A stretch of 64,000 bases of DNA from Candidatus Poribacteria bacterium (GCA_965242965.1 OZ251518.1:2176001-2240000); one strand, 5' to 3'. Shown: positions 8,364-63,626, counted from the stretch's first letter. Notes: generated by a model from the letters alone, not told the origin. Numbers and translations are program-made.

Positions 8364-8431
8364 TCCCACTCTCCCTTGCAGCAAACGGGATTATGAGCGC
8401 GTGCCTATTTACGAAAGAGGAGAACATTTTC

Positions 8432-11377: not shown

Positions 11378-11528
11378 GAGCAGGATTTACAAGATTAGGC
11401 AAGATTTTCAAGAGGACATTTCACACCGCACCCAACCTATCAGAACTGCCACAAGCAGCGGGGGCAGGGGATGCCCCCCTCATCCTGCAAAATCTTGTAA
11501 ATCTTGTAAATCTTGCAAATCCTGCTCC
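11378..11528. repeat. Inverted pair of 9-mer tandem arrays (CAGGATTTA... / ...AAATCTTGT)
   Basis: caggatttacaagattaggcaagatt at left; aaatcttgtaaatcttgtaaatcttgcaaatcctg at right. Confidence 0.8.
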
Positions 11529-30446: not shown

Positions 30447-30479
30447 GATGCCGATTATCCTTTTATGTTTTCCTAGTGA

Positions 30480-30820
30480 ACGCTGGCGGGGGGCAGGCCC
30501 CCGCGCTACGATAAAAAACGGCACTTCATCGTAGGGTTTGGGCCCTCGGATGCCACACGCGCATCCGAGCGGGTTCCCCTCGCCAGCGTCCACGCACCAG
30601 GCCCTGTAGGTCAGGATCGCCTGATCCTGACCTGTTTGTGATCAGGCGATCACAAACTACAGAGGGGAAACACACATCGGGACGATGGAGATCGCGGGCG
30701 AAACCCGCTCGGATGCGCGTATGGCATCCGAGGGCCCCCGCGCTACGGTAATCGAGAAATCGCGGGGGACAGGCCCCCGCGCTACGGGAACATCAAGCCC
30801 CGAGGTCTCTCCTACCGGGA
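30480..30820. repeat. REP cluster between the two methyltransferases
   Basis: GTAG hairpins, including loop-insertion variants. Confidence 0.85.
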
Positions 30821-31829: not shown

Positions 31830-31872
31830 GATGCCGGGTATCCTTTGCAAAAGCGTGATGAGAAAAACGCTG

Positions 31873-32571
31873 CTATTCGGCTAAACGTTTTATCACCTTT
31901 TGGATATCCTCCCACACTTCGCGCTTCGCGCTTGGATTGCGGAGGAGATATGCGGGGTGATACGTCGGCATTATCACCGGCGCGTTGTCCCGTTGTCCCG
32001 CGACACCGTAGGGCTGAAACTCCCCCCGAAGTGCCGTGATACCCATCTTGGTATCCAGCAACAACTGCGCGGCGAAGCTGCCGAGGGCAACAATCACTTT
32101 CGGCTGAATGAGCTCAATTTGGCGTTCCAAATAGGGGCGACACATATCCACTTCATCGGAGGCTGGATTTCTGTTACCCGGCGGCCTGCACTTCAGCACG
32201 TTCGCGATATAGACATCGTCGCGCGTCTTCCCCATCCCTTTCACGATGATGTCTGTCAGCAATTTGCCGGCTCTGCCGACAAAAGGTTCTCCCTGCCTGT
32301 CTTCATCAGCACCGGGTGCCTCGCCGATAAACATCAGATCAGCGTTCGGGTTCCCCACGCCGAAAACGACGGTATTTCGAGTTGCGTGAAGTCCACATCG
32401 GGTGCAGCCTTGGGCATCGGCATCTAACTGCCCCAAGTCTAACGTAGCGTAAGGAGATGCCTGCTGCGGTTCTTGTAGTTCGGTGATACCGAGTTCAAGT
32501 TGTTCTTGCACGTATTCCCTCACAGTGGCGACAAGTTGTAGGTATTCTTCTTTGAGGTTGTCTCTGTTCAT
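31873..32571 (-). CDS. Uracil-DNA glycosylase family 4
   Basis: [36 protein letters not shown]; start at MNRDNLK because the upstream extension is repeat-derived. Confidence 0.94.
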
Positions 32572-32955
32572 GGCGGCATGGCGAGGGACAGGCCCCCGCC
32601 CTACGATGAAAACGGACATGATGGCATGGCGAGGGACAGGCCCACGCCCTACGATGAAAACGGACGTAGGAGAGACCTCCCGGTCTCGATGCATGGCGAG
32701 GGACAGGCCCTCACCCTACGATAAAAATGGACGCTGCAGCCCCACTCTGTAGAGCAAGAGCGCCTGCTCTTGACCCCGCGCCCTACGATAAAAACGGAAA
32801 AATACGTTCATGGCGGCATGGCGAGGGACAGGCCCGCGCCCTACGGTAACCAAACCGCCCCACTCTGTAGGGCAAGAGCGCCTGCTCTTGACCCCGCGCC
32901 CTACGATAAAAACGGACATGGCGGCATGGCGAGGGACAGGCCCTCGCCCTACGAT
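32572..32955. repeat. Tandem REP array
   Basis: Repeated GGCATGGCGAGGGACAGGCCC.CGCCCTACG and GTAG.GCAAGAGCGCCTGCTCTTG units. Confidence 0.9.
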
Positions 32956-40858: not shown

Positions 40859-41405
40859 GCAGGATATGAGCAGGATTTATACAAGATTAGCACGATTAGG
40901 AGCAGGATTTACGAGATTTACAGGATTTCACAGGATTAGGTCTCTGGTGCGCTGGCGCGGTTGTGGACTGCCACGGGGTGTTCGATGCATCAGCATCTAT
41001 AATCGTGGTAAATCGTGATAATCGTGTAAATCCTGCTTCAGACGATTGGCATAGCGAGGGACAGGCCCTCGCCCTACGGTGAACGGAAACGGCATTGCAA
41101 ACCGTAGCGCGGGGGCCTGTCCCCCGCGATCGTTCGACCCGCGCGAAAAACACCTCTTCAGAAGCTCTGCAGCGGTTTATCTCTGTAGGACAAGAGCACC
41201 TGCTCTGGATCCGTTCGGGAGCGGGTGCTCCCGAACTACAGATCCGGGACATGAGCACGATCGCGGGGGACAGGCCCCCGCGCTACGGGCCAGGACGAAA
41301 AAAACGCGGGGGACAGGCCCCCGCGCTACGGTACCTAAACCACCTCTGTAGGGCAAGAGCACCTGCTCTTGCCCATTGCGATCGGGCGATCGCAACCTAC
41401 AGAGG
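40856..41405. repeat. Inverted 9-mer arrays plus REP cluster
   Basis: caggatttacaggatttcacaggatt ... aatcgtgtaaatcctg, followed by GTAG hairpins. Confidence 0.85.
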
Positions 41406-46655: not shown

Positions 46656-47612
46656 AATCCTATAAATCCTATAATTTTGTCTATGGCGTATCGGGACAAG
46701 GATGTCCCTCCTACCCAAACGCATATCGGGACAAGGATGTCCCTCCTACCCAAACCCGTAGGAGAGACCTCCCGGTCTCGATGCAACTTTCGGTAGGAGA
46801 CCGTAGTTCGGGAGCGCCTGATCCCGAACGGCGCATGGCGAGGAGAACCCCTTCCGGGCCCGTAGCGCGGGGGTCTGTCCCCCGCGATCGCCCGCGTGCC
46901 CCAGAGACTGTAGTTCGGGAGCACCTGCTCCCGAACGGGTCAAGAGCAGGCACTCTTGACCTACAGAGGTGATGCGCGCACGCGTGCCCGAGGGCACGGC
47001 GAGGGACAGGCCCTCGCCCTACGGTAAACGGCACGTTTTTTCACCGTAGCGCGGGGGCCTGTCCCCCGCGATCGCTCGATCTGCGCGAAAAACGCACGCA
47101 GACTAAGGGCGTTTTCCCGACCGAGGCATGGCGAGGGACAGGCCCTCGCCCTACGGTATGCGTGGCGTTTTTTTCACCGTAGGGCGGGGGCCTGTCCCCC
47201 GCGATCGTTCGCGTGCCCCAGAGACCGTAGTTCGGGAGCACCTGCTCCCGAACGGGTCAAGAGCAGGCGCTCTTGCCCTACAGAGGGGATGCGCGCACGC
47301 GGGCCCGACGGCACGGCGAGGGACAGGCCCTCGCCCTACGGTGAAAGGAGACGGCCTTGCATACCGTAGCGCGGGGGCCCTCGCCTGCCACACGCGCAGG
47401 CGAGCGGGTTTCCCCCGCGATTGCCAGACCCGCGCGAAAAACGCACGCCAGCCAAAGCCGTTTTCCCGACCGTTGCATGGCGAGGGACAGGCCCTCGCCC
47501 TACGGTAAGCGGCACGTTTTTTCACCGTAGCGCGGGGGCCTGCCCCCCCGCGGTGGATACCGCATCCTCAGATGCTATAATCTTGTAAATCCTATAATCT
47601 TGCAAATCCTGA
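46656..47612. repeat. Large (~950 bp) REP mosaic bounded by 9-mer repeats
   Basis: At least five hairpin families; internal duplication (~46860-47065 vs ~47180-47370); similar to the 205-640 cluster. Confidence 0.9.
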
Positions 47613-48599: not shown

Positions 48600-49055
48600 C
48601 TCCCGCCTCGCGAGGGCCTGTCCCTCGCGAACGTGACATGCTCAATACCGTAGCGCGAGGGCCTGTCCCTCGCGATCGCTAGTTTTTTGTAGTTCGGGAG
48701 CGCCTGCTCCCGAACGGGTCAGGATCAGGCGATCCTGACCTACAGAGGTGAGGAGGTCTGACGGCCAAACGCATGGCGAGGGACAGGTTTTCCCACCGCC
48801 CTACGTGAAGGGATGGCGTTTTTTTCACCGTAGCGCGAGGGCCTGTCCCTCGCGATCGTTAGTTCTTTGTAGTTCGGGAGCGCCTGCTCCCGAACGGGTC
48901 AGGATCGTTTGGCAAATATGCCAGAACTTCAGACGATCCTGCCCTACAGGGGTGAGGCGGTCTGCCAGCAAAACGCATGGCGAGGGACAGGCCCCCGCCC
49001 TACGTGAAGGGGTGACGTTTTTTACCGTAGCGCGAGGGCCTGTCCCTCGCGATCG
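48600..49055. repeat. REP cluster (tandem duplicated ~180-bp unit)
   Basis: GTAGCGCGAGGGCCTGTCCCTCGCGA variant and associated hairpins repeated. Confidence 0.9.
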
Positions 49056-49084: not shown

Positions 49085-50299
49085 TTGAAAAAAATAACTT
49101 ACACGTGCCTACTGCTTTTATGCATCACCCCGTTCGCCTTCGGACAAGGCTTGCCGATGGCGGTGCCGGAGGAACTCGGCATTTCAACCGAACGCCTCCA
49201 ACGCATCAAACCCGCCATGCAAGAATACGTCGATGAAGGCCACGCGCCCGGTTTCTTAACTGCCATCGCGCGGCACGGGAAAATCGTGCATTTTGAAACC
49301 GTCGGCCTGCGCGATATCGAAAATAGCAAACCCGTAGAACCGGATACAATCTTCCGCATCTACTCCATGTCAAAACCAATAACCAGTGTCGCCGCGATGA
49401 TGCTCTACGAGGAAGGACGCTTCCAATTGGATACGCCGGTTGCCGAATTCATCCCCGAATTTGAGAACATGAAGGCATACAACGAAGACCAGACGGAAAT
49501 CAGGGATGCCGAGAAACCGATAACCGTCAAGCATCTCCTGACGCACACCGCCGGGTTCACTTACGGCTGGGGCAACAAACCCGTTGACAAACTCTACGGG
49601 CAAGCGTCACTTCTTAAGTCTAGCAAAAACTTAACCGAGATGGTGCAAAATTTGGCACAAATCCCGCTCGTTCACGAACCCGGTGAAGAGTGGACTTACG
49701 GGGTCTCCACCGATGTGCTCGGTTATCTCGTTGAAGTCGCCGCCGAAATGCCGTTTGAGGAGTTCTTACAGACGCGGATTTTTCAGCCCCTCGGCATGGT
49801 AGACACCGGGTTTTCCGTGCCATCGGAAAAGACGCACAGGTTTGCGGCGTTGTATCGGTTCTCGAAAGAGGAGGGAATGAAACTAGGGCAGGCATCCCCT
49901 CTCACAAACGAGGAACTCAGTTTCTTCCCAGCGGGTGGTAGCGGACTTGTCTCCACCACGGCGGATTACCTGCGCTTTTCCCAAATGCTCCTTAACGGCG
50001 GCGAGTTGGACGGGGTGCGCATCTTAAGCAAAGAAACGGTGGAACTGATGCGGCAGCCACATCATCGATGGGGAAAAGGCGGCGGGTTCGGGCTCGGCTT
50101 TTCTGTCGTCATGGAGGTGAATCTGGAGAAGAGTCCCGTATCGGTGGGGAGTTTCAGTTGGGGTGGTGCCGCGGCGACTACCTTCTGGATCGATCCGGAA
50201 AAGGAGCTCATCGGCGTGTTGATGACGCAGCTGATGAATAATCCTCATCCTTTCCAGCATGAATTTAAGGTGTTGACGTATGAGGCTTTGATGGATTGA
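49085..50299 (+). CDS. Serine hydrolase, beta-lactamase/S12 family, with signal peptide
   Basis: FRIYSMSK (SxxK), LLTHTAG, WTYG, WGGAAAT.FWIDP. Confidence 0.92.
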   Translation: MKKITYTCLLLLCITPFAFGQGLPMAVPEELGISTERLQRIKPAMQEYVDEGHAPGFLTAIARHGKIVHFETVGLRDIENSKPVEPDTIFRIYSMSKPITSVAAMMLYEEGRFQLDTPVAEFIPEFENMKAYNEDQTEIRDAEKPITVKHLLTHTAGFTYGWGNKPVDKLYGQASLLKSSKNLTEMVQNLAQIPLVHEPGEEWTYGVSTDVLGYLVEVAAEMPFEEFLQTRIFQPLGMVDTGFSVPSEKTHRFAALYRFSKEEGMKLGQASPLTNEELSFFPAGGSGLVSTTADYLRFSQMLLNGGELDGVRILSKETVELMRQPHHRWGKGGGFGLGFSVVMEVNLEKSPVSVGSFSWGGAAATTFWIDPEKELIGVLMTQLMNNPHPFQHEFKVLTYEALMD

Positions 50300-50632
50300 A
50301 GGGGCATTACCGTAACCGAGGCCTGGCGAGGGACAGGCCCTCGCCCTACGCGGAGGAGCGGCACTATCCCTTACCGTAGCGCGGGGGCCTGTCCCCCGCG
50401 GTGCTACGATGGACCCAGCCCCCTCTGTAGTTCGGGATCGCCCGATCCCGAACGGGGCAGGATCAGGCGATCCTGCCCTACAGAGGGGATGCGGTCTGCC
50501 AGCCAAACGCCCGGCGAGGGACAGGCCCTCGCCCTACGGATTGAAGAAGCACTGCCCCGCGAAACTTCCCTTGACTTAAAATCCGCTATCAAATAAAATA
50601 AACGCATACAGACCAAAACATTAGGAGGCACC

Positions 50633-51811
50633 ATGACAATATGCCACGGACTCCCGCGCGCCATTCCCGAAGAAGTAGGAATGTCAGCAGCGCGGTTAAA
50701 ACGCATCGCCCCGGTGATGCAACGCCACATCGACGAAGGAACCATCTCCGGCGCGTTAACCATGATAGCGCGCGAAGGAAAACTCGTCCATTTTGAGAAA
50801 CTCGGCATGCGCGACATCGCCGCAGCGAAACCGATGGAATTTGATACCATCTTCCGCATCTATTCCATGACGAAGCCGATTACCAGCGTCGCCGTGATGA
50901 TGCTTTACGAAGAAGGGCATTTCCAACTGAACGCGCCGATATCCGAATTCATTCCCGCCTTCAAAGACATGAAGGTTTACAGCGAAGATCAGACGGAAAT
51001 TGTCGATGCTGAGCCCGAGATGACGATAAAGCATCTGCTCACGCATACCGCCGGGCTCATCTACGGCGGTGATAGTGGTAGCCCGATTGATCTGGCGTAT
51101 CAAGACGCGAATTTCTTCGATGCAACGCTTGAATCAATGGCGCAGAGACTGGGAGCCATTCCGCTGCTGCACCACCCCGGTGCGGCATGGACTTACGGCA
51201 TGTCCACCGATGTGCTAGGATACCTTGTGGAAGTCGTGTCCGGGATGCCGTTTGAAACCTTCTTGCAGACGCGCATTTTCGAGCCGATGGGAATGGTAGA
51301 CACCGGCTTCTCTGTGCCAGAAGAAAACGCAGACCGGTATGCCACACTCTATGAACAAACTGAAAACGGCGGCATTCAGGTGGTAGAGCAAGCACCGGTT
51401 TCAACGGGTCCGCTGAGTTTCCCGCCATCAGGTGGTGGAGGACTTCAGTCAACCGCCGCCGATTACCTGCGCTTCTGCCAGATGTTGCTCAACAACGGCG
51501 AACTTGACGGCGAACGCCTCCTCGGTTCAAAGACGGTGGAGCTCATGCGGATAAATCATGTTGACGATGCTTGGCAGCCGTTGGAGAGAGAGGGGTGCGG
51601 TTTCGGGCTTGGGTTCGCGGTCGTCACAGACCTGGCGGAGACACATGCCCTCGGTTCGGAAGGCACTTTTAGTTGGGGCGGTTTGGCACGGACAACGTTT
51701 TGGATCGATCCGGTGGAAGAGCTCATCGCCGTATTCATGACGCAGCTCCTCGGCGATGCGCAGTTCCACGCGCAGTTCCGGGTGCTGACGTATCAGGCGA
51801 TTATTGATTAA
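50633..51811 (+). CDS. Serine hydrolase paralog, no evident signal peptide
   Basis: FRIYSMTK, LLTHTAG, WTYG, WGGLART.FWIDP. Confidence 0.92.
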   Translation: MTICHGLPRAIPEEVGMSAARLKRIAPVMQRHIDEGTISGALTMIAREGKLVHFEKLGMRDIAAAKPMEFDTIFRIYSMTKPITSVAVMMLYEEGHFQLNAPISEFIPAFKDMKVYSEDQTEIVDAEPEMTIKHLLTHTAGLIYGGDSGSPIDLAYQDANFFDATLESMAQRLGAIPLLHHPGAAWTYGMSTDVLGYLVEVVSGMPFETFLQTRIFEPMGMVDTGFSVPEENADRYATLYEQTENGGIQVVEQAPVSTGPLSFPPSGGGGLQSTAADYLRFCQMLLNNGELDGERLLGSKTVELMRINHVDDAWQPLEREGCGFGLGFAVVTDLAETHALGSEGTFSWGGLARTTFWIDPVEELIAVFMTQLLGDAQFHAQFRVLTYQAIID

Positions 51812-51817
51812 TTGAAA

Positions 51818-52290
51818 GATCGCGGGGGACAGGCCCCCGCGCTACGGTGAAGGGGGGTATCCCGCGCGACGTAGGGCGAGGGCCTGTCCCTCGCCATGCC
51901 AAGAAGAGAGGGCGATTTTGATTCATTAAACGATCGCGGGGGACAGGCCCCCGCGCTACGCGGAAGGGATAATGCCTCTTCAATCCGTAGGGCGAGGGCC
52001 TGTCCCTCGCCATGCCAAACGGAAAAAAATTGATTCATTAAACGATCGCGGGGGACAGGCCCCCGCGCTACGGTAGAAGAACGGTCTCCGCGCATCGTAG
52101 GGCGAGGGCCTGTCCCTCGCCATGCCAAACGGAAAGAGAAATTGATTAATGGAACGATCGCGGGGGACAGGCCCCCGCGCTACGCGGAAGGGATAATGCC
52201 TCTTCAATCCGTAGGGCGAGGGCCTGTCCCTCGCCATGCCAAACGTACCCCGCGTTACGTAGGGCGAGGGCCTGTCCCTCGCCATGCACA
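51818..52290. repeat. BIME-like regular array of alternating inverted REP pairs (4 units of ~115-120 bp)
   Basis: [GATCGCGGGGGACAGGCCCCCGCGCTACG]-linker-[CGTAGGGCGAGGGCCTGTCCCTCGCCATGCCAA]-linker x4, plus one extra REP. Confidence 0.9.
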
Positions 52291-53999: not shown

Positions 54000-54580
54000 G
54001 AGAGCCCTCCTGGTTTTGATTTTTCAACATATCGGGACAAGGATGTCCCTCCTACCCAAAACGATGTTCCCCGTAGGAGAGACCTCCTGGTCTCGATGCA
54101 TTCCCGTAGGAGAGACCTCCCGGTCTCGATGTTCCCGTAGCGCGGGGGCCTGTCCCCCGCGCGCGTTGGGATACGCGAGCAATGGCGAGGGACAGGCCCT
54201 CGCCCTACGGTGAGGGGTGGTGTGTTTATCGTAGCGCGGGGGCCCTCGGATGCCAGACGCGCATCCGAGAGGGTTTCCCCCGCGATCTCATCGTCACGAT
54301 GTGTGTTTCCGCCTCTGTAGTTTGTGATCGCCTGATCACAAACAGGTCAGGATCTGGCGATCCTGACCTACAGAGCCTGGCGCACGCACGCTGGCGAGGG
54401 ACAGGCCCTCGTCCTACGGTGAAGGGGTGGTGTTTTTATCGTAGTAGGAGGGACATCCTTGTCCCGATACGCACAGCAACAAAACGCATCGAGACCCGGA
54501 GGTCTCGCCTACTGGGGGCATCGAGACCCGGAGGTCTCGCCTACTGGGGGCATCGAGACCCGGAGGTCTCGCCTACCGAA
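53995..54580. repeat. REP cluster
   Basis: Multiple families, ending in three tandem GCATCGAGACCCGGAGGTCTCGCCTAC. Confidence 0.9.
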
Positions 54581-54645
54581 CGCTGGGTTGACATCCATCG
54601 CGGATTTGTGGTATCCTATAAACTATAGAGAGGAGGAAACCCAAA

Positions 54646-55326: not shown

Positions 55327-56304
55327 ATGAAAAACATCACATTTTTCTTTATTTTCCTCTTACTCATCTACGCGCAACCGTCCTCCGCTATCCGCGAAGG
55401 CACGGCGAACGCCGCCATTTTCATCAAGCAGTATGAACAGCGCGGCGAGTGGGACAAAGTCGCACTCTGGCACGAAGCCGCAGCGGAATGCCTGATTCGC
55501 ATCTCTATCCCGATGAACGAGATCGCGCATGCCTATTACACACGCCGTGGACACGAGAAATGGGCGGCGCGTGCGAAGAAAGAACGCGCGGAGATTCAGG
55601 CGCAACGTCAGTCGCTCATGAACCGTGCGGAGAATGCATGGGAAAAATCGGGAGTAATGGCTACCGAGCGGCGGGGACAGGCACGCGCCCTACGGGATGC
55701 CAATAGTTTGTCGCGTTTACAAGCAGAACGTGAAAAAATCTCTCAATTTATCGCGACGTGGGCACCGCACTATCCCGATAGATTCTACGATTTCGGCATC
55801 TATCCGACCTTTTTTAGGGAACAACGCGAGCGCGCGGCGCAGAAAAAGGATTACGTCAAAGTCCTACAACTTGAGGCAGACGCGGCGGAGATGTGCGCGG
55901 CGCAGTATGAAAAAATCCCCCTCGCTCTCGGGTTGAAACGTTATGAAAAGGTCCGAGATGCCTATCGTCAGCATGCGATGCTACTCCGCGCGCTCGCAAA
56001 GCAAAACCCGAAACTGACAGCCCTTTGCCTCAAAAATGTTGCGGAACGCTCCATTAACCCACTGGCTACTGTTTCCAATGGCGCAAAAACAGACGTAATG
56101 CTTCAGACTGCCAGATCTGATCAGCGCGTGCAAAAGGCTCTCGAAAATAAAAATGGCATTCACGAATACGTCTGGTTTCAAGGGTTTGCTTGGACGGTAA
56201 GTTTCTATAACCACAGCCAGGGAAATCTCGCCATCGCCATTATTGATGACAAAACGGGAAAAGTAGTTGACGTGTTGATTCAGGTAGGTTCACCTGAAAA
56301 TTGA
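55327..56304 (+). CDS. Hypothetical secreted helical protein
   Basis: Signal peptide; internal repeat EAAAEC / ADAAEMC; in-frame REP remnant. Confidence 0.7.
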   Translation: MKNITFFFIFLLLIYAQPSSAIREGTANAAIFIKQYEQRGEWDKVALWHEAAAECLIRISIPMNEIAHAYYTRRGHEKWAARAKKERAEIQAQRQSLMNRAENAWEKSGVMATERRGQARALRDANSLSRLQAEREKISQFIATWAPHYPDRFYDFGIYPTFFREQRERAAQKKDYVKVLQLEADAAEMCAAQYEKIPLALGLKRYEKVRDAYRQHAMLLRALAKQNPKLTALCLKNVAERSINPLATVSNGAKTDVMLQTARSDQRVQKALENKNGIHEYVWFQGFAWTVSFYNHSQGNLAIAIIDDKTGKVVDVLIQVGSPEN

Positions 56305-59300
56305 AAAGCATTGCCTGTGGGAACGGGCAGATGAAGAGCGAAAAATATAGAGATATGAATGTGAAAATCCTCAGAAGCATCGCCCTCTTTTTTATCGCGT
56401 TCGGCGTGGAAGCAGCGCAACTCACTCCCGGCGAACTGCTCATCCGCTTGACTCCCGATGCTGCAAGGTTGCAAGCCAACGCGCCGATATCCGTGCTGCA
56501 CGCCGAGCACAAGGTGGAATCGCTGCAGCCGCTGTTTCCCTATCTGGCGCGCCCGGCACTCAATCCGAACCTCAGGCGCACCTATCTGCTGCGCTTCGCG
56601 CCTGACATAGATTTGGAGACAATCAAAGCCGTTTACGCCGAAAGTCCACTCGTTGAAGCAGTCGCGTTTAATTATCTCCGGCCAACGTTTCAAGAAACGC
56701 GGCGGCGGGAAGGAGAAGTGGTGAATCCAAATGACCCGAGGTATGCAGAGCAGTGGAACCTCCCGTTGACACGACTGCCACAGGCATGGGCAATTGAGAA
56801 AGGCAGCGCGAACGTCGTCATCGCCATCATCGATTCTGGCATCGATTATCGGCACGACGATTTGGCGGCGAAGACATGGGTGAACCCCGGCGAGGTGCCG
56901 GACAACGGACTTGACGACGACGGCAACGGTTACGTTGACGATGTGCATGGCTGGGATTTCACCGACGCGCCGAATGTGCAGGGTGAAGGCGATTTCATTG
57001 AAGGCGACAATGAACCTATCGATGAGTCCGGACACGGCACACATGTCGCCGGTATCGCCGGTGCGATGGCGGATAACGGCATCGGCATCGCCGGTGTGGC
57101 GTGGCATTGCCCCCTCATGCCGATTCGCGCCGGGCTCTCCCTCGGCGGCAGTTCGCGCATGCAAGACGATGACTCCGCCGCCGCTATCGTTTACGCCGCC
57201 GATAACGGTGCCAGCGTGATTAATATGAGCTGGGGAAGCGAGCAGGTATCCTTCGTTATCCAAGATGCTATTGATTACGCGCACGCCCGCGGTGTCGTGC
57301 TAGTCGGTGCCGCAGGAAATTCACAGAAAGCGGCCGCCATTTTCCCCGCCGCCTATCGGCAAGTCATCGCCGTTGCATCAACCGAACAGCATCAACAGCG
57401 GTTTTACCAATCAAACTTCGGTGCCTCCGTGGACATAGCCGCGCCGGGGAACGTCATCCTCAGCACACAAATTGACAACCAGTATCGCCTGCTGACTGGC
57501 ACCTCTATGGCTGCGCCGCACGTCGCGGGTGTCGCCGCGTTGATGCGCTCCAAGCGTCCCGCGCTCACGCATGAAGAAGTGCGGCAGATTCTGATTAATA
57601 CCGCCGATGTTGTCCTTCAAGAAGAGAGCGATACCCCAGACCCGAGATTTGTCGGTGCCGGCACCCTGAACGCCGAACGCGCGCTGTTAGCGAGCGGCGC
57701 GTTGCAAGCGCGCATCCTCTCTCCCGAAACGAATAGCGGCGGCTCCGACGCGATGCATATCATCGGCACCGCAGGCGGCTATCAGTTTGAATCGTGGCAA
57801 CTGCTTTATGCACAATCCACAGTCCCGGAGACCTTTACGCCGTTCACAGAACCCTCCTCTCAACAAAAAATCGAGGAAACATTGGCGGTGTGGGATACCA
57901 CTGCAATGCCGGAAGGCATCTATACCGTGCGACTGCAGGTTAACGCAAAAAACGGCACGAAAACGCAAGACCAGGTTGTCGTCGCGGTTGACAGGACACC
58001 GCCGCAGGTTACATCCCTCACGGCGACAGAAACGCTTTATGGAAACCGCTCGATTACCATTTTCACGTGGGCAACCGATGATGTCACTCGCAACACCCTC
58101 TATTATCGGCGCAAAAACCAACTCGCGCCATTCGCTTCCGTTGAGGAAAACGAACTCGGCAAGGAACATTTCATCTCTCTCGGCCTGACAAACGGCACTT
58201 ACCAATTTTACGTTGAAGCGCGAAATGCCATCGGTTTGACGGTAACCGAGAACAATCAAGGGCAATACTGGCCACTTGACGTTGTCGGCAGTGCCATCTC
58301 GCCGAACGGGTTTGACGATTTGTCCATCGGCGTGCCGCCTCTCCACATCGCCAGCGTCACCGCCGATTTTGATGGCGATGGCGCGCTGGAAATCGTCGGA
58401 AAACCGATGCAGGAGACAGGCATTGCGATTTATGAACGGAACCAAACCGGAAAATATCAAGAACGCGAAAGACAGGACATCGCGCTACACACGGGAGATG
58501 AAGCGTTCACGCCTTGGACAGTCAACGATACCGACAACGATGGACTGCTAGAAATCCTCGTCAGCGACAGCGATAGGACTTTTCTGCTTGAGAGCACCGC
58601 GCCCAACGGATACCCCGAAAACCTTATCTGGGAATCGCCTTTTCTTACCGGCGGCAGCATCGCCGATTTGGATGCAGATGGCAGGAAAGAGATTATTGGG
58701 GCAGACAATCGAAACGACCGGATTCTCATCTACGAGAATCGCGGAGATAACCTCTATGAAGAAATCGCGCAACTTGTCAACGAGACAGAAGGCGCGAACG
58801 TGTTCGGGCATCACTTCGCAATCGCCGATTTTGATGCAGATGGAAACCTGGAACTCGTCGCGGGCGATAGCGAAGGTGAACTCTTCGTCTATTCCGCCTT
58901 CGCAAACGACAGATTTCGCCTAGAATCGCAAATGCAATTGGATATGACTGGGGAAACTTTGCGAGGGACAGGCACGCAACCTACGGTATCAGGAGGGATA
59001 GAGGTGACGTTGTTAACTGCGGGAGACTTAACGGGGGATGGCATCCCAGAGTTCGTAGTCGGCGGCACGCAAGAATTCGCAGGTGTGCCTTCGGCGGCAC
59101 CCCTCTGGAAATTTTTCGTCTTTACGCACGCGCGCGGACAAAACGCGCTGAATACCGTGGCGCGCGTAGCCGCTCTCCCTGAAGCAGCGAACGGCTACGC
59201 GCCGCTCTGGGAGCAAGCAATAGTGCCCTATCGCCGAATCGGAAACGGGCTCCGCATCGCCGATGTAACAGGTGATGGCAATAAAGAGCTCGTCATCCTC

Positions 59301-60485
59301 ACGCATCCAAACCTCTACGTCATGAAATGGGACGGCACCACTTTCGTCCCGATGTGGCATCGGGAAGTCTATGAAACACCAACCCTATTCATCGCCGATT
59401 TAGACGACAACGGGTTTGGCGAAATCTATATCAATGCTGATGACGAACTCCGCCGTTTTGAATCCTCGTTCGCGAAAAATAGGCAGGCGGTTGAAACCCT
59501 CACCCCGTGGGAACTCTCCGCAACACCGCTGACAGCGAAGGCGGTTCAGGTGACATGGGTAGCCCCCGCTGTCGGTAGGAGAGAACTCCCGGTCTCGACA
59601 CCTGCTGTCGGTAGGCGAGACCTCCCGGTCTTGACATCTTTCACCGTCTATCGCGCGATAGGAGAAAAAGGCAAAACCCCTGACGATACCGAATTTAAAC
59701 CGATTGCCGAGGAACTCACAACACCGCGGTTTTTGGACAGGCGCGTCACGACTGATAAAACCCACTGGTATGCCATCACGGCAAAAGACGAAAACGGGGA
59801 GGAGACTGAACGCACAGCGGCTGTTTCTGCCACGCCGCGCCAGCCGCCGAAACTCATCAGCGCGCAGTTACACGTTCCTGGCACCTCATCACGAATGCCT
59901 GTCCCGCACGAAACCTCCATATCGGAACGGCGTTGGGTAATCCTCACGTTCGACCGGCAGATGGGATTCGCTATCGGCGACGAAAGCCGATATCTCCTGC
60001 GCGAACCGCAGCGGATTGGCGGCGCGCGTCCCGTGTCTGCCATTCGCGATAGAATGGGCACGAGAGCACTCCTCGCTTTTGAACCGCAGCATTTTCAACA
60101 GGCGGACTATGAAATTACGGTATCTAACGTCGCCGATAGTGACGATAATCCGCTGCGAACCGCGACGCAACCGCTTCAGATGCCGCAAAGCCTTGGCACA
60201 ACAGCGGTAACCGATTTCACGCAGGCTCGCGTCTATCCGAACCCCGTTTATCCCAACATCTCCGACAAAGGCGCGATTACGTTTGATAAAGTCCCAATTG
60301 GCACCCGCATCCAAATTTTCGCACCGACAGGGGAACTCATCGAAGATTTCAGAGCGCACAACGAGAACCGTAGCCAATGGTGGTTGACTAGCAAAGGCGG
60401 CGCAGATGTCTCCAGCGGCATCTATATCTACGTGCTTGAATTTGAGAACCTAAAAAAAGTTGGAAAAATCGCTGTCGTGAAATAA
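56301..60485 (+). CDS. S8 subtilisin-like serine protease with FG-GAP repeats and a C-terminal secretion-type (T9SS-A/FlgD-like) domain
   Basis: IIDSG, HGTHVAG, AAGN, GTSMAAPHVAG; DFDGDG..EI repeats; VYPNP...SSGIYIY...GKIAVVK; true start may be the ATG of MNVKIL. Confidence 0.93.
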   Translation: MKSIACGNGQMKSEKYRDMNVKILRSIALFFIAFGVEAAQLTPGELLIRLTPDAARLQANAPISVLHAEHKVESLQPLFPYLARPALNPNLRRTYLLRFAPDIDLETIKAVYAESPLVEAVAFNYLRPTFQETRRREGEVVNPNDPRYAEQWNLPLTRLPQAWAIEKGSANVVIAIIDSGIDYRHDDLAAKTWVNPGEVPDNGLDDDGNGYVDDVHGWDFTDAPNVQGEGDFIEGDNEPIDESGHGTHVAGIAGAMADNGIGIAGVAWHCPLMPIRAGLSLGGSSRMQDDDSAAAIVYAADNGASVINMSWGSEQVSFVIQDAIDYAHARGVVLVGAAGNSQKAAAIFPAAYRQVIAVASTEQHQQRFYQSNFGASVDIAAPGNVILSTQIDNQYRLLTGTSMAAPHVAGVAALMRSKRPALTHEEVRQILINTADVVLQEESDTPDPRFVGAGTLNAERALLASGALQARILSPETNSGGSDAMHIIGTAGGYQFESWQLLYAQSTVPETFTPFTEPSSQQKIEETLAVWDTTAMPEGIYTVRLQVNAKNGTKTQDQVVVAVDRTPPQVTSLTATETLYGNRSITIFTWATDDVTRNTLYYRRKNQLAPFASVEENELGKEHFISLGLTNGTYQFYVEARNAIGLTVTENNQGQYWPLDVVGSAISPNGFDDLSIGVPPLHIASVTADFDGDGALEIVGKPMQETGIAIYERNQTGKYQERERQDIALHTGDEAFTPWTVNDTDNDGLLEILVSDSDRTFLLESTAPNGYPENLIWESPFLTGGSIADLDADGRKEIIGADNRNDRILIYENRGDNLYEEIAQLVNETEGANVFGHHFAIADFDADGNLELVAGDSEGELFVYSAFANDRFRLESQMQLDMTGETLRGTGTQPTVSGGIEVTLLTAGDLTGDGIPEFVVGGTQEFAGVPSAAPLWKFFVFTHARGQNALNTVARVAALPEAANGYAPLWEQAIVPYRRIGNGLRIADVTGDGNKELVILTHPNLYVMKWDGTTFVPMWHREVYETPTLFIADLDDNGFGEIYINADDELRRFESSFAKNRQAVETLTPWELSATPLTAKAVQVTWVAPAVGRRELPVSTPAVGRRDLPVLTSFTVYRAIGEKGKTPDDTEFKPIAEELTTPRFLDRRVTTDKTHWYAITAKDENGEETERTAAVSATPRQPPKLISAQLHVPGTSSRMPVPHETSISERRWVILTFDRQMGFAIGDESRYLLREPQRIGGARPVSAIRDRMGTRALLAFEPQHFQQADYEITVSNVADSDDNPLRTATQPLQMPQSLGTTAVTDFTQARVYPNPVYPNISDKGAITFDKVPIGTRIQIFAPTGELIEDFRAHNENRSQWWLTSKGGADVSSGIYIYVLEFENLKKVGKIAVVK

Positions 60486-60533
60486 AAATTGTCCGGGTGG
60501 ATGTCGTTAACTATCCTCCCGCTGTTCAAACGT

Positions 60534-61712
60534 ATGGACACCTTTATTTTAATCGCAAATCCTATCTCCGGTAAAGGGCGCGCCAAAACCATCGCGGAGC
60601 AAGCATACGCCGCGCTCACCAAATCCGGTCAGACCGGCACGCTAGCATTAACCGCCGGCCCCGGCGATGCCGAACGTTTCGCGCAAGATGCAGTGAACGC
60701 CGGCATTCGGAAAATAATCGCTTGTGGCGGCGACGGCACCCTCCACGAAGTTGTCAACGGTATCGCGCAGCATTCCGAAAACACGTCGGTTCCGGTAGCG
60801 CGAGGGCCTGTCCCTCGCGAGGCTCAGGATACCGTAGCGCGAGGGCCTGTCCCTCGCGAGGCTGCCGTCAAGAGTCAGGATACCGTAGCGCGAGGGCCTG
60901 TCCCTCGCGAAGCTGCAGACAAGATACGAGATACCGTAGCGCGAGGGCCTGTCCCTCGCGAGGCTGCCGTTGAGAATCAGGATACCGTAGCGCGAGGGCC
61001 TGTCCCTCGCGAGGCTGCCGTCACCTTAGGCGTTCTCCCCTGCGGACGCGGCAACGATTTCGCCGCCGCCATCGGCGTGCCACGAAAAACCGAGGAAGCC
61101 GTTCAGAACTTATTCACCGGCAAACCAACCCAGGTCGACCTGGGGAAAATCACGCCTCTCCCAGTAGACGAGCCTTCCCGGACTCAAACAGACACCGAAA
61201 TCCCGCCTCAGAAAACGCGATACTTCATCACCATCGCCACCTGCGGTTACGATGCCGAAGTCAGCCGGCGCGGCGCGGAACGAAGCACGCCGTTCAAAGG
61301 CACCGCGGCTTATGTGTGCGCCGCCCTCGCCACGCTTGCTGACTACAAATGCCCTATTATTAAACTTGAGGGAGACTTCGGCACCCTTGAGGGAGAGCAT
61401 CTCCTCGCCGCGACAGGCATTACGCCTCGATATGGCGGCGGTTTCCGCATCGTGCCGAACGCGCGTTACGATGATGGACTATTTGATGTCTGTAGCATTC
61501 GTTCCGTTTCCAAAATCACGATACTCCGACTCCTCGTCACCCTCTTCTGGGGAGGGCATGTCTCGCATCCAGCCGTGGAGATACGCCAGACGCGCACGTT
61601 GCGGATTGAAACGGAGCCCCCCATGTTACTCTACGCCGATGGCGAACCGATGTGTGAAACCCCTGCGATGATTGAAATCGTGAAGCATGGGCTCACCGTC
61701 CTTGCGCCGTAA
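60534..61712 (+). CDS. Diacylglycerol/lipid kinase (YegS/DAGK family) with an in-frame REP array
   Basis: IANPISGKG, GGDGTLHEVVNG, LPCGRGNDFA, YGGG, DDGLFD, ADGE; TVARGPVPRE-type unit x5 inserted; alternative start 60489. Confidence 0.9.
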   Translation: MDTFILIANPISGKGRAKTIAEQAYAALTKSGQTGTLALTAGPGDAERFAQDAVNAGIRKIIACGGDGTLHEVVNGIAQHSENTSVPVARGPVPREAQDTVARGPVPREAAVKSQDTVARGPVPREAADKIRDTVARGPVPREAAVENQDTVARGPVPREAAVTLGVLPCGRGNDFAAAIGVPRKTEEAVQNLFTGKPTQVDLGKITPLPVDEPSRTQTDTEIPPQKTRYFITIATCGYDAEVSRRGAERSTPFKGTAAYVCAALATLADYKCPIIKLEGDFGTLEGEHLLAATGITPRYGGGFRIVPNARYDDGLFDVCSIRSVSKITILRLLVTLFWGGHVSHPAVEIRQTRTLRIETEPPMLLYADGEPMCETPAMIEIVKHGLTVLAP

Positions 61713-61719
61713 AAAGGGA

Positions 61720-61840
61720 CATCGCGAGGGACAGGCCCTCGCGCTACGGTGATGAGGGGGATGCGTTCGCGAGGGACAGGCCCTCGCGCTACGGTGATGA
61801 GGAGGATGGGTTCGCGCGAAACAGGCCCTCGCGCTACGGC
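61720..61840 (-). repeat. Three tandem REP hairpins between convergent genes
   Basis: TCGCGAGGGACAGGCCCTCGCGCTACGG x3 (third copy degenerate). Confidence 0.9.
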
Positions 61841-61871
61841 CCTCGGCGGAGAAGACTGATTCTGTCCATTG

Positions 61872-63626
61872 CTATTCTCCGGAATACAACGCTTCAATCA
61901 CATCGGCGTAGCGTTCAATAATCACGTTCCGCTTCAGTTTCAGCGTCGGTGTCACCTCATCGTCTTCCTGCGTGAATTCCTTCTCCAGCAGCGCAAACCG
62001 GCGCACCTGCTCAAAATCGGCAAAGTCCGCCAACCGCTCGCGAAGTTCACTTTGGAAGAGCTGCTGCACCTCCCGCTTCTGAAGATTATCCGTTACAACG
62101 CTATTCTCTCCGCCCCACTCCTTAAGTGCATCAAAATTCGGGACGAGCAGCGCGGCGAGGTTTTTCTGCTCGCTGCCCAGCACCAAAACCTGGCTGATAA
62201 ACGGGCTCCGTATCAATTCACTCTCTATCGGCTGCGGTGCCACATTCTTGCCGTTTGACAGCACGATGATGTTCTTCTTCCTATCGGTAATCTTCACGAA
62301 CCCATCTTCATCAATCACGCCGATGTCGCCGGTGTGAAACCATCCGTCTGCGTCAATCACCTCGTCGGTAGCATCGGGGTTGTTGAAATAACCCTTCATC
62401 ACGTGCGGGCCGCGCGTCAAAATCTCACCATCTTCGGCGATGCGCACCTCCACCCCGGGGACAGGCGTGCCGACGGTGCCGAATTGCCACTTCGCGGGAT
62501 GGTTCATGCTAATGACAGGCGAGGTTTCGGTGAGTCCGTATCCTTCCAAAATCAGAATGCCTGCGGCGTGAAAGAATTCAGCGATGGATTGCGGTAACGC
62601 CGCGCCGCCGGAGATGAAAAATCGCAGTCGTCCGCCTGTCGCCGCCTTCAATTTTGCGAAGACCAGCTTGTCGGCGATGCCTGCCTGCAGTTGCAAAAGT
62701 GCGGAGGGTTTCTTACCTTGCTGCATCGCCGCGCTGCAAGCCGAACCAACGCCGACTCCCCAATGGAAAATCTTCTGTTTCAGCGATGAACCGGCGCGCA
62801 CCGCACGCAGGATACGTTCGTGCATCGTTTCATAGAGACGCGGCACACTGAGCATCAATGTCGGCGCGATGTCCTGCATATTCGCCGCCACCGTCAATAC
62901 GCTTTCGGCGTAGGCAATCTTCGCGCCGGAGAAAAGCGGCACATAATGCCCGCCGAGCCGTTCAAACACATGCGACAGTGGTAGGAACGACAACAGTACA
63001 TCTTCCGCTCCGACATCAACAAGCGATTTGCACGCCTCGACATTTGAGATGAAATTAGCGTGCGTCAGCATCACCCCCTTCGGTTCGCCTGTCGTGCCGG
63101 AGGTATAAATAATCGTGGCGATGTCCTCTTCGTCCGTAAGCGCGCCCTCCAAGTCCCGATGCTTTTCCCCATCAACCGCGCTACAGAGGGCATCAAAAGC
63201 AATAACACCGGGAGGGAGTTCCTCTTCCGTTGAATCAAACAGAATAATCTGCTCCAGCGTTGGAACATCCGCAACTTTCTCCAACTGCTTTTTCGTAGAA
63301 ACACAAGCAATTTTCGCGCCAGAATCTTTCAGAATGTAGCCGACCTGCGGGGCTGTCAACGTCGAAAACATCGGCACGGTGATAGCCCCCGCGGCAAGGG
63401 TGCCGAAGTCAGCGATTGCCCACTCCGGTCTGTTCTCCGATAGAATCGCCACTCTGTCTTCCTTCACAACGCCGAGTGAGTTGAGCCCGTTCCGGAACGC
63501 CGCAACCGATTCGCCGAGGGCAGTGTAAGAAATGTCCTGATAGGTGCCCCCTTTCGGCTTGAACGCCAGCGCGGGCTTGTCTCCGTAATGCTGGATGGCG
63601 TGCTCCAACCTAGAAGTGAGTGTCAT
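61872..63626 (-). CDS. Long-chain fatty acid--CoA ligase (AMP-binding)
   Basis: YTSGTTGEPKG, LPLSH, EGYGLTE, WFHTGD, GKNVAP, TPTLKLKR. Confidence 0.95.
   Translation of the reverse strand: MTLTSRLEHAIQHYGDKPALAFKPKGGTYQDISYTALGESVAAFRNGLNSLGVVKEDRVAILSENRPEWAIADFGTLAAGAITVPMFSTLTAPQVGYILKDSGAKIACVSTKKQLEKVADVPTLEQIILFDSTEEELPPGVIAFDALCSAVDGEKHRDLEGALTDEEDIATIIYTSGTTGEPKGVMLTHANFISNVEACKSLVDVGAEDVLLSFLPLSHVFERLGGHYVPLFSGAKIAYAESVLTVAANMQDIAPTLMLSVPRLYETMHERILRAVRAGSSLKQKIFHWGVGVGSACSAAMQQGKKPSALLQLQAGIADKLVFAKLKAATGGRLRFFISGGAALPQSIAEFFHAAGILILEGYGLTETSPVISMNHPAKWQFGTVGTPVPGVEVRIAEDGEILTRGPHVMKGYFNNPDATDEVIDADGWFHTGDIGVIDEDGFVKITDRKKNIIVLSNGKNVAPQPIESELIRSPFISQVLVLGSEQKNLAALLVPNFDALKEWGGENSVVTDNLQKREVQQLFQSELRERLADFADFEQVRRFALLEKEFTQEDDEVTPTLKLKRNVIIERYADVIEALYSGE

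What the first reader, a model, noticed from the sequence alone, without database searches (positions are those of the whole stretch)
60790..61020. Five tandem REP hairpins translated in frame inside a lipid kinase
Seen: the intergenic palindrome GTAGCGCGAGGGCCTGTCCCTCGCGA starts at 60795, 60834, 60885, 60936 and 60987 inside the DAGK/YegS ORF. The spacings (39, 51, 51, 51 bp) are all multiples of three and give (T)VARGPVPRE x5. The roughly 70-aa insert lies between GGDGTLHEVVNG and LGVLPCGRGNDF, and the catalytic motifs are intact. Known: these two motifs are normally joined by a short loop, and in-frame palindromic inserts are described for Rickettsia RPEs. Inference: a GTAG-type REP has colonised and expanded in a permissive loop under selection to keep the frame, creating a new peptide repeat.
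Basis: partly seen in the sequence, partly recalled or inferred. Interest (0 to 1): 0.8.

Follow-up and report, generated by a model that had tools for sequence, protein, structure and literature searches.

The report
Translated REP array inside lipid kinase
Five copies of a short palindromic DNA repeat that normally sits between genes have settled in frame inside a lipid-kinase gene of a Poribacteria-like bacterium, adding an 80-residue floppy loop; this is a clean new example of a process already described in other bacteria.

Summary
The 26-mer starts at 60795, 60834, 60885, 60936 and 60987, inside an intact DAGK_cat/YegS_C gene. The same palindrome family occurs 68 times in the 64-kb window against 0 expected. 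Of these, 63 lie outside coding sequence.

Among homologues with both motifs, 105 of 118 have 24 residues from GGDGT to PCGRGND; the window has 104. Ten close relatives carry 2-5 full (T)VARGPVPRE cores, and some also carry hairpin-deleted units.

The insert is modelled as low-confidence coil between a helix and a strand of the N-terminal domain.

The case is not unique. The neighbouring S8 peptidase carries two in-frame copies of another GTAG palindrome. VARGPVPR arrays also occur in 11 other Pfam architectures.

The REP cores are identical at 29 of 29 positions, while the spacers between them differ at 9 of 22.

Intragenic GTAG REPs, including clusters encoding 43-82 aa, were described by Di Nocera et al. 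2013 (PMC3733652).

The parts
60501..61712 (+). DAGK_cat/YegS_C lipid-kinase-family gene. Possible starts are TTG 60489, ATG 60501 (giving the 403-aa database form P0001) and ATG 60534 (where distant orthologues start). The stop codon ends at 61712.
   Evidence: Best solved relative is DgkB 2qv7, E 2.2e-28.
60768..61025 (+). Loop-coding segment between ...VVNGIA and LGVLPCGRGND. It encodes 86 residues here where canonical orthologues have 6 (TVPDVT), a net gain of 80 aa.
   Evidence: The AlphaFold2 model has pLDDT < 50 and no secondary structure over residues 84-159.
60795..60820 (+). REP core copy 1, read as VARGPVPR(E); the unit is 39 nt.
60834..60859 (+). REP core copy 2; the unit is 51 nt.
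   Evidence: The single-unit RNA hairpin folds at -18.8 kcal/mol.
60885..60910 (+). REP core copy 3; the unit is 51 nt.
60936..60961 (+). REP core copy 4; the unit is 51 nt.
60987..61012 (+). REP core copy 5, followed by GGCTGCCGTC and then the native ...ACCTTAGGC (AAVTLG).
61722..61837 (-). Three copies of the same REP subtype in inverse orientation (2 exact, 1 with 3 mismatches), period 45. They lie in the 159-nt gap between the convergent kinase and AMP-binding genes, the ordinary extragenic setting for REPs.
59568..59636 (+). Second in-frame case in the neighbouring gene. Two copies of a different GTAG palindrome (GTAGGAGAGAACTCCCGGTCTCGA) sit in the S8 peptidase ORF and read AVGRRELPVSTPAVGRRDLPVLT.
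   Evidence: The nearest orthologues P0187 and P0188 have AATGLT at this site.

Best explanation
A GTAG-type repetitive extragenic palindrome (REP) entered the DNA that encodes a short surface connection of a DAGK/YegS-family lipid kinase. The site lies between the helix after GGDGT and the next beta-strand. The REP family is very abundant in this Poribacteria-like genome.

The REP and its flank were then multiplied head to tail, mostly in 51-nt (17-codon) units. This most likely happened by slipped-strand or unequal recombination between the identical cores.

Only products that keep the frame and avoid the TAG-containing frame survive. In frame 1 the palindrome reads V-A-R-G-P-V-P-R-E, a Gly/Pro/Arg-rich peptide that is tolerated as a flexible loop. 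The enzyme stays intact.

Shown here: the identity of the REP, the position of the insert, an intact and conserved gene, copy-number and unit variation among relatives, and the same process in other genes.

Inferred: the duplication mechanism, the disorder of the loop, the neutrality of the insert, and whatever keeps the cores identical (homogenisation by conversion or re-copying, or selection on the DNA/RNA hairpin).
For: REP identity. There are 68 copies in 64 kb against 0 expected. Of these, 66 of 68 start with GTAG. Stem pair 5-25 is C-G in 33 copies and G-C in 33; stem pair 9-21 is A-T in 37 and G-C in 20. Only 5 of 68 copies lie in coding sequence, although about 79% of the window is coding.

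Site. DgkB 2qv7 aligns to query residues 6-80 and 164-206 with only 4 DgkB residues in between. Among homologues with both motifs, 105 of 118 have the 24-residue spacing.

Gene intact. Both Pfam domains score above their cut-offs, and the catalytic motifs are invariant in A1.

Variation in relatives. Ten relatives have 2-5 full cores, units of 13, 17 or 22 aa, and some hairpin-deleted units (TVAR-EAAV). Three forms sit on contigs of 5.66-5.81 Mb, and P0003 is arranged differently from P0001 and P0002. L001 keeps ACCGTAGC|CGCAGTCACC (TVAAVT), that is, GTAG without the hairpin.

Phylogeny. The 9 array bearers in the tree form one group (SH-aLRT 83).

Units are homologous. Spacers of units 2-4 differ at 3-9 of 22 positions, while the cores differ at 0 of 29 (Fisher p 1.6e-4).

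Frames. Five of the six frames of the element are open; frame +2 contains TAG.

Loop. pLDDT is below 50 and the model is coil over residues 84-159, while residues 1-80 score 82-96.

Generality. The S8 peptidase has 2 copies of another REP. Sixty of 76 hits to the insert peptide carry Pfam domains, in 12 architectures. In the 10 representatives that gave a Pfam hit, the arrays lie in linkers or loops.
Against: No DNA of the close relatives could be fetched, so the duplication and deletion events are read from peptides only.

Copy numbers of P0004-P0010 come from contigs of 1,971-170,876 nt. Collapse or expansion of the repeat during assembly is possible for these.

P0019 (227 aa, starting at MLPCGRGND, on a 46,760-nt contig) and P0013 (263 aa, starting inside the array) could be genes broken in the array rather than fragments.

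No RAYT-type transposase was found among 117 ORFs of the window, so the mobilising enzyme is unseen.

Perfect identity of the cores beside diverged spacers is not what simple neutral decay of a tandem duplication predicts.

The AlphaFold2 model is poor overall (mean pLDDT 55.7, and several C-terminal segments are below 50). Low confidence in the insert is therefore weak evidence of disorder.

There are no expression or activity data.
Confidence: 0.8

Rival explanations
1. The array is kept for a function at the nucleic-acid level. In this view five stable hairpins inside the message, or REP sites in the DNA, tune translation, mRNA decay, transcription or supercoiling, and the peptide is a by-product.
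For: The cores are identical at 29 of 29 positions, including every third codon position, while the spacers between them vary at 9 of 22.

Each unit folds at -18.8 kcal/mol. The 270-nt segment folds at -122.6 kcal/mol against -109.3 +/- 5.6 for shuffles (z -2.37).

REP subfamilies show compensated stem changes.
Against: The single-unit z-scores are only -0.82 and -1.59.

Relatives tolerate units with the hairpin deleted (TVAR-EAAV) and cores with stem-breaking changes (VAREPVPRE), and copy number runs from 0 to 5.

Identity of the cores can equally come from homogenisation against the many identical copies elsewhere in the genome.
Confidence: 0.25
2. The VARGPVPR(E/D) repeat has been taken up as a useful peptide module, such as a flexible spacer or a Pro/Arg-rich interaction motif, and is kept by selection on the protein.
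For: The same peptide arrays occur in 12 Pfam architectures. They persist at two fixed sites of the CCA-adding-enzyme family in 17 clusters. The arrays sit in linkers and loops.
Against: The search was made with this frame's peptide, so recurrence of the same frame is built in.

Copy number and spacer sequence vary freely, the sister protein P0011 has no insert, and most orthologues lack it.

Di Nocera et al. argue that insertion into unrelated proteins speaks against functional constraint (PMC3733652, passage read).
Confidence: 0.12
3. The array is an assembly artefact, or the gene is a decaying pseudogene.
For: Short tandem repeats are error-prone in assemblies. Truncated forms P0013 and P0019 exist.
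Against: Ten independent clusters from different contigs carry arrays at the same site and in the same frame. Three of them are on contigs of 5.66-5.81 Mb.

The ORF is complete, with both domains and invariant motifs.

The proteins are 92-98% identical outside the insert.
Confidence: 0.04
4. The locus is a CRISPR-like array, or a coding repeat from which the intergenic copies derive.
For: It shows a regular repeat-spacer layout, with 26-nt palindromic repeats and 13-25-nt spacers.
Against: The spacers are homologous to one another, with 3-9 differences in 22.

The array lies inside a conserved enzyme gene. The same palindrome is dispersed at 63 extragenic sites in both orientations.

No cas family was found among 117 ORFs, and Rfam gave no match.
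Confidence: 0.01

Closest known systems
Intragenic GTAG-tagged REPs (Di Nocera, De Gregorio and Rocco 2013, BMC Genomics 14:522; PMC3733652; passages and Additional file 3 searched)
   Same: Both are short GTAG-headed palindromes that are mostly extragenic. Some copies lie wholly inside ORFs of known proteins. They occur as singles, dimers or head-to-tail groups, and clusters encode 43-82 aa. The authors suggest the inserts are tolerated because they fall in linkers or loops.
   Different: That survey does not mention Poribacteria (0 occurrences in the main text), and its Additional file 3 lists no diacylglycerol or lipid kinase.

Here there are five perfect head-to-tail cores in one loop of a catalytic domain. 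Copy number varies from 0 to 5 among close relatives. The same peptide array occurs in 11 further architectures.
Rickettsia palindromic elements (RPE). The original description by Ogata et al. 2000 is recalled; it is cited as refs 13 and 14 in PMC3733652.
   Same: Both are palindromic selfish repeats inserted in frame in genes that appear to stay functional, and both add a peptide segment.
   Different: According to PMC3733652, the short Rickettsia intragenic repeats RPE-4 and RPE-6 belong to the CGTC-tagged class, and RPE-1 is a longer insert. The element here is a 26-nt GTAG REP in tandem copies, in a large free-standing genome rich in extragenic copies.
REP/BIME-RAYT (REPIN) systems of Pseudomonas and enterobacteria (PMC2817692, PMC3333891, PMC3116915; search listing and start of abstracts only)
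   Same: The GTAG head, the GC-rich stem-loop, the high copy number and the alternating-orientation arrays (window 51803-52245) are shared.
   Different: No RAYT gene lies in the window. These papers treat REPs as extragenic, and translated arrays are not their subject.
DgkB / YegS soluble lipid kinases (PDB 2qv7, 2jgr, 2bon)
   Same: The domain pair, the GGDGT motif and the following PxGxxND strand are shared. E-values are 2.2e-28 to 3.8e-18.
   Different: The solved enzymes have about 4 residues where this protein has about 83. The substrate of the Poribacteria enzyme is unknown.

Membership tests
GTAG-type REP (repetitive extragenic palindrome) | A 20-40 bp unit with a 6-9 bp GC-rich stem and a short loop | tested here: met
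   The unit is 26 nt, with the 8-bp stem CGCGAGGG/CCCTCGCG and the loop CCTGT. The RNA hairpin folds at -18.8 kcal/mol.
GTAG-type REP (repetitive extragenic palindrome) | A terminal GTAG that is not part of the stem | tested here: met
   66 of 68 copies start with GTAG.
GTAG-type REP (repetitive extragenic palindrome) | High copy number, dispersed, in both orientations, and mostly between genes | tested here: met
   There are 68 copies in 64 kb against 0 expected. 63 of 68 lie outside coding sequence, while about 79% of the window is coding. Only this window was examined, not the whole genome.
GTAG-type REP (repetitive extragenic palindrome) | Subfamilies that differ by complementary stem changes | tested here: met
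   Pair 5-25 is CG in 33 copies and GC in 33. Pair 9-21 is AT in 37, GC in 20 and other in 11.
GTAG-type REP (repetitive extragenic palindrome) | An associated RAYT (Y1/HUH transposase) gene flanked by REPs | tested here: inconclusive
   No such family was found among 117 ORFs of at least 110 aa in the window at E <= 1e-5. The rest of the genome is not available.
DAGK_cat / YegS-type lipid kinase | DAGK_cat plus the YegS_C beta-sandwich domain, both above the curated cut-offs | tested here: met
   PF00781 scores 100.5 bits (cut-off 23.6) and PF19279 scores 107.5 bits (cut-off 27).
DAGK_cat / YegS-type lipid kinase | The GGDGT nucleotide-binding motif and the following PxGxxND strand | tested here: met
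   G65 G66 D67 G68 T69 and P169 C170 G171 R172 G173 N174 D175 are invariant in 42 sequences.
DAGK_cat / YegS-type lipid kinase | Lipid kinase activity and substrate | not testable with these tools
   This needs an enzyme assay.
Rickettsia RPE | A member of the Rickettsia repeat families (CGTC-tagged RPE-4 and RPE-6, or the longer RPE-1) | tested here: not met
   The element carries GTAG, not CGTC, and is 26 nt long. The class assignment of the RPEs is taken from PMC3733652.
CRISPR array | Unique spacers, a non-coding setting and cas genes | tested here: not met
   The spacers are homologous to each other, the array lies inside an enzyme ORF, and no cas family was found in the window.

The most novel reading that the evidence does not exclude
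In this Poribacteria lineage, REPs may act as a standing source of new protein segments. The same palindrome, kept identical at the nucleotide level, is repeatedly taken into coding sequence and expanded into VARGPVPR(E/D) arrays in at least 12 unrelated protein architectures. These arrays would be maintained, by selection on the hairpin or on a Pro/Arg-rich linker or interaction motif, rather than merely tolerated. The same 26 nt would then carry two layers of constraint at once.
Probability: 0.2. Interest if true: 0.7.

Novelty: new member of a known kind. Interest (0 to 1): 0.45.

Why it matters
It shows, with graded natural variants, how selfish palindromic DNA can lengthen a loop in the catalytic domain of an enzyme without breaking the gene. 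The variants seen are 0 copies, a hairpin-less remnant, 1 degenerate copy, and 2, 3, 4 and 5 full cores.

In this lineage the same repeat has been written into many proteins.

There is also a practical point. REP arrays create spurious ORFs (16 of 76 hits have no Pfam domain) and false N-terminal extensions (MutL, UDG and a methyltransferase in this window). Annotation of such genomes should mask REPs.

The identical cores beside diverged spacers offer a natural test of whether REPs are homogenised or selected at the DNA or RNA level.

Tried and rejected
One scan of genome contigs with the kinase gave only two loci, at 62% and 58% identity. The window's own genome and the relatives of 85% identity or more are not in that collection. 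DNA-level comparison of the arrays (synonymous sites, indel junctions, empty site) was therefore impossible.

A search for a RAYT gene in the window found none. Rfam gave 0 matches.

A first regular expression for the S8 loop was too strict: of 105 proteins, 103 did not match, P0188 matched, and P0254 gave neither a 'no match' line nor a printed hit. It was replaced by an alignment.

One search failed for a technical reason and was repeated.

Fold search, complex prediction, the search of protein representatives and the protein-atlas search were not used, because the sequence-level PDB match already placed the insert.

Literature. 'Poribacteria' with 'palindromic' gave 31 papers, and none of the 15 listed is about REPs. 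'Poribacteria' with 'repetitive extragenic' gave 1 unrelated review. A four-term search for in-frame or intragenic REP arrays returned, among bacterial REP work, only PMC3184786 and PMC3733652. The statement that this is not in print for Poribacteria rests on these three searches of the held library only.

The CRISPR and ancestral-coding-repeat readings were rejected, as set out under the rival explanations.

Full report
**Observation.**
The exact 26-mer GTAGCGCGAGGGCCTGTCCCTCGCGA occurs on the + strand at 60795, 60834, 60885, 60936 and 60987. The spacings are 39, 51, 51 and 51 nt. Tandem Repeats Finder reports a 51-nt period with 3.9 copies over 60824-61023.

All five copies lie in one ORF. 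It may start at TTG 60489, ATG 60501 or ATG 60534, and its stop codon ends at 61712. The copies are read as PVARGPVPRE once and TVARGPVPRE four times. The ORF matches Pfam DAGK_cat (E 6.6e-29, split into two stretches) and YegS_C (E 7e-31).

**What the repeat is.**
With up to 3 mismatches the pattern has 68 matches in the 64-kb window, against a mean of 0.00 in 100 shuffles. Of these, 66 of 68 begin with GTAG and 38 of 68 are preceded by ACC.

The 8-bp stem shows compensated subfamilies. Pair 5-25 is C-G in 33 copies and G-C in 33. Pair 9-21 is A-T in 37, G-C in 20 and mismatched in 11.

Only the five kinase copies lie inside Pfam-supported coding sequence. The other 63 sit in the roughly 21% of the window that is not coding. 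This count used my own gene list, in which three ORF starts were trimmed.

Alternating-orientation arrays also occur, for example at 51803-52245 with periods of 114 and 224. At least five other GTAG-headed palindrome families fill the intergenic DNA.

These are the defining features of GTAG-type REPs and BIMEs as summarised by Di Nocera et al. 2013 (PMC3733652, passages read). No RAYT-type transposase is present among 117 ORFs of at least 110 aa in the window, so that feature stays open. Rfam has no match in the window.

The exact subtype found in the kinase occurs 10 times in the window. Five copies are in the gene. Two more, plus one degenerate copy, lie in inverse orientation just downstream at 61722-61837, between the convergent kinase and AMP-binding genes. 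Three lie at 48650-49052.

**Where the insert sits.**
A search of the protein collection gave 813 homologues at E <= 0.001, and the best 120 were listed. One of them is named Candidatus Poribacteria. The two loci found in genome contigs are also Candidatus Poribacteria MAGs.

Of the 120 listed proteins, 118 have both GGDGT and PxGxxND. In 105 of these 118 the two motifs are 24 residues apart (...GIATVPDVTLGVLPCGRGND). The window has 104, a net gain of 80 residues.

Against the solved DgkB (2qv7, E 2.2e-28), query residues 6-80 align to DgkB 29-103 and query residues 164-206 align to DgkB 108-150. About 83 residues therefore stand where DgkB has 4.

An AlphaFold2 model built from a 42-sequence alignment is confident for residues 1-80 (block means 82-96). 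It shows residues 84-159 as coil with pLDDT below 50. The model is poor overall (mean pLDDT 55.7, with several C-terminal segments below 50), so this is weak support for a disordered loop. The catalytic motifs are invariant in the alignment.

**Variation among relatives.**
Ten clusters, 92-98% identical to the window protein in alignment A1, carry arrays at the same site and in the same frame. They have 2 (P0008), 3 (P0009), 4 (P0003, P0004, P0006, P0007, P0010) or 5 (P0001, P0002, P0005) full cores. Units are 13, 17 or 22 residues long. P0003, P0004 and P0010 each also have one unit in which the five hairpin codons are missing (TVAR-EAAV).

P0001, P0002 and P0003 lie on contigs of 5.66-5.81 Mb, and P0003 is arranged differently from the other two. 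At least that difference is unlikely to come from short-read repeat collapse. The other forms are on contigs of 1,971-170,876 nt, so their counts are less certain.

P0014 has one degenerate copy (QDTGAREPGPRE). P0012, which corresponds to locus L001, keeps ACCGTAGC followed directly by CGCAGTCACC (TVAAVT). That is the GTAG head without the hairpin. P0011, 94% identical, has no insert.

I built a tree without the insert columns, using 41 rows; P0010 was left out because it is N-terminally truncated. The 9 array bearers form one side of a branch (SH-aLRT 83). P0011 is their sister (92), then comes P0012 (96*), and P0014 lies at the base of a 16-row clade (100*). The root is not inferred, so gain and loss cannot be told apart. 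One early insertion followed by expansion in one branch and decay or loss in others fits best.

Two truncated forms exist: P0013, which starts inside the array, and P0019, which starts at MLPCGRGND. They may be contig-edge fragments or genes broken in the array. This could not be checked.

**Units and cores.**
Units 2-4 are clearly homologous over their whole 51 nt, so the array grew by duplication of REP plus flank. Their 29-nt core (ACC plus the 26-mer) has 0 variable positions, including all third codon positions. The 22-nt spacer has 9 variable positions (Fisher p 1.6e-4). Pairwise differences are 0 in the core against 3-9 in the spacer.

Simple neutral decay after duplication does not predict this pattern. 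Either the cores are homogenised against the many identical copies, or the palindrome itself is under constraint.

Each unit can form an RNA hairpin of -18.8 kcal/mol. The 270-nt segment folds at -122.6 kcal/mol against -109.3 +/- 5.6 for shuffles (z -2.37; 5 of 200 shuffles fold as well).

Five of the six reading frames of the element are open, and only frame +2 contains TAG. A single insertion therefore needs little luck beyond a length divisible by three.

Same-orientation neighbours in intergenic DNA are spaced by a multiple of three in 8 of 15 cases, against 4 of 4 in the gene. The numbers are small and the three 51-nt spacings are not independent.

**Not a one-off.**
The neighbouring S8 peptidase ORF (56301-60485) carries two in-frame copies of a different GTAG palindrome at 59568-59636, read as AVGRRELPVSTPAVGRRDLPVLT. 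The nearest orthologues, P0187 and P0188 (82-83% identical in the region), have AATGLT there.

In the kinase family itself a second loop has REP-derived peptides in other lineages. L001 has a reverse-orientation copy at 10445-10470, read as TRGTGTRPT, next to a run of N. P0018 has GRGPVPRD.

A search with the 85-residue insert among longer proteins gave 76 hits at E <= 0.001. Sixty of them have Pfam domains, falling into 12 architectures:
- the kinase: 10
- CCA-adding/PolyA_pol: 17, with arrays at two sites
- FGE-sulfatase: 7
- PfkB/Phos_pyr_kin: 7
- type ISP methyltransferase: 4
- PQQ_2 beta-propeller: 4
- ABC_tran + TOBE_2: 4
- M28/PDZ peptidase: 2
- N_methyl pilin-like: 2
- UPF0182: 1
- LPG_synthase_C: 1
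- amine oxidase/DAO: 1

The remaining 16 have no Pfam domain. Many of these look like ORFs read through intergenic REP arrays.

Each family has its own period (13-20 residues) and its own spacer. I ran Pfam on 11 representatives; 10 gave a hit and P0128 gave none. Taken:
- In four (type ISP enzyme, ABC, M28 peptidase, FGE-sulfatase) the arrays lie between Pfam domain hits.
- In CCA the first array lies at or just after the end of the PolyA_pol head domain and the second lies between domain hits.
- In the PQQ_2 representative (P0157) the array lies between two beta-propeller stretches.
- In one (LPG_synthase_C) the array lies after the last domain.
- In three (PfkB, UPF0182, amine oxidase) the arrays lie inside a domain hit that is stretched accordingly.

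The query fixed the frame, so nothing can be said about frame preference. Other frames of neighbouring REPs (MARDRPSPYG, WRGTGPRPT) also appear in these proteins. Only one of the 76 hits is named (Candidatus Poribacteria).

**Mechanism.**
Best-supported reading (confidence about 0.8 for the origin): a REP entered the loop-coding DNA, and REP plus flank was multiplied and trimmed by recombination between identical cores. Only in-frame, stop-free products persist. The Gly/Pro/Arg-rich peptide is tolerated as a surface loop of a kinase that stays functional.

Shown here: REP identity, site, intact gene, variation and generality.

Inferred: the duplication mechanism, disorder, neutrality, and the cause of core identity.

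Rivals, with confidence: function of the hairpins at the DNA/RNA level (0.25); a selected peptide module (0.12); artefact or pseudogene (0.04); CRISPR-like array or ancestral coding repeat (0.01).

**Comparison with what is known.**
Di Nocera et al. 2013 report REPs entirely inside ORFs in several species. GTAG repeats are most frequent in Opitutus terrae. [quoted passage not shown] The authors suggest the inserts are tolerated in flexible linkers or loops (passages).

Their Additional file 3 lists, for example, a Thauera ABC transporter with 54 REP-encoded residues, but no diacylglycerol or lipid kinase. Poribacteria are not mentioned in the main text. The held library has no paper linking Poribacteria with REPs.

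Rickettsia RPEs (recalled; cited there) are the classic analogue, but they belong to other repeat classes.

The case is therefore a new member of a known kind. What it adds is a new phylum, a five-copy perfect array in a loop of a catalytic domain, a graded series of natural variants, many host proteins in one lineage, and the contrast between cores and spacers.

**Limits.**
There is no DNA of close relatives, no reads, no expression data and no whole genome. The window's genome and its nearest relatives are not in that collection.

Noticed in passing
window 59568-59636 (+), in the S8 peptidase ORF 56301-60485: Two in-frame copies of a different GTAG palindrome (GTAGGAGAGAACTCCCGGTCTCGA) encode AVGRRELPVSTPAVGRRDLPVLT. 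The flanking sequence (VQVTWVAP before it, SFTVYRA after it) looks like two strands of a beta-sandwich domain. The nearest orthologues P0187 and P0188 have AATGLT at this site.
   Followed up: yes
window, intergenic regions throughout (for example 257-299, 2037-2120, 4400-4593, 14110-14503, 22185-22287, 46686-46975, 54030-54583): At least five further GTAG-headed palindrome families occur: GTAGTTCGGGAGCGCCTGCTCCCGAAC; GTAGGAGAGACCTCCCGGTCTCGATG; GTAGGCGGGACATCCCTGTCCCGA; GTAGGTCAGGATCGCCTGATCCTGAC; and a long form of the main family with an extra inner hairpin. 11-mers present three or more times cover 9,806 of 64,000 nt, a figure that also includes paralogous genes.
   Followed up: partly
window 51803-52245: A BIME-like array in which two REP subtypes alternate in opposite orientation, with period 114 (3.9 copies) or 224 (2.0 copies).
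   Followed up: partly
window 2496-4616 (-), 31876-32694 (-), 28920-30593 (-): The longest ORFs of MutL, a UDG-family protein and a DNA methyltransferase run upstream through REP arrays. Their first Pfam domains begin only at residues 106-109, 111 and 71. These N-terminal extensions are probably not translated, and the true starts lie downstream.
   Followed up: partly
window 61631-61897 (-): An 88-aa ORF reads the three downstream REPs as VARGPVPR in the same frame as the kinase array. It is probably spurious. Similar domain-less 'proteins' make up 16 of the 76 database hits.
   Followed up: partly
L001 10445-10470, and protein P0018: A second variable loop of the kinase, just before (Y)F(I/T)TIATCGYD, holds REP-derived peptides in other lineages. 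In L001 it is a reverse-orientation copy read as TRGTGTRPT, next to a run of N. In P0018 it is GRGPVPRD.
   Followed up: partly
proteins P0013 and P0019 (relatives of the kinase): These are truncated forms. P0013 starts inside the array and P0019 starts right after it. P0019 lies on a 46,760-nt contig. They are either contig-edge fragments or genes broken in the array.
   Followed up: no
window 133-199, 11384-11521, 40903-41032, 47575-47610; also 6918-7083 and 24408-24470: Short 9-nt tandem repeats (CAGGATTTA / AAATCTTGT) recur at four intergenic sites, and AAGGACCTAAAGGACCT palindromes occur at two. They are unrelated to the GTAG families and their meaning is unknown.
   Followed up: no
window 22335-24017, 28920-30593, 30843-31850 (all -); 7326-9466 (+); 49085-51808 (+): There are three N6_N4 DNA methyltransferase genes within 10 kb, and two of them share repeated segments. 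There are also tandem paralogue pairs of GFO_IDH_MocA oxidoreductases and of beta-lactamase-family proteins.
   Followed up: no
L002 (OZ219750.1), whole 20,981-nt locus: This more distant Poribacteria genome (45.6% G+C against 55.1% in the window) has none of the four REP families tested, and its kinase loop is the canonical short form. REP load therefore differs sharply within the phylum.
   Followed up: partly
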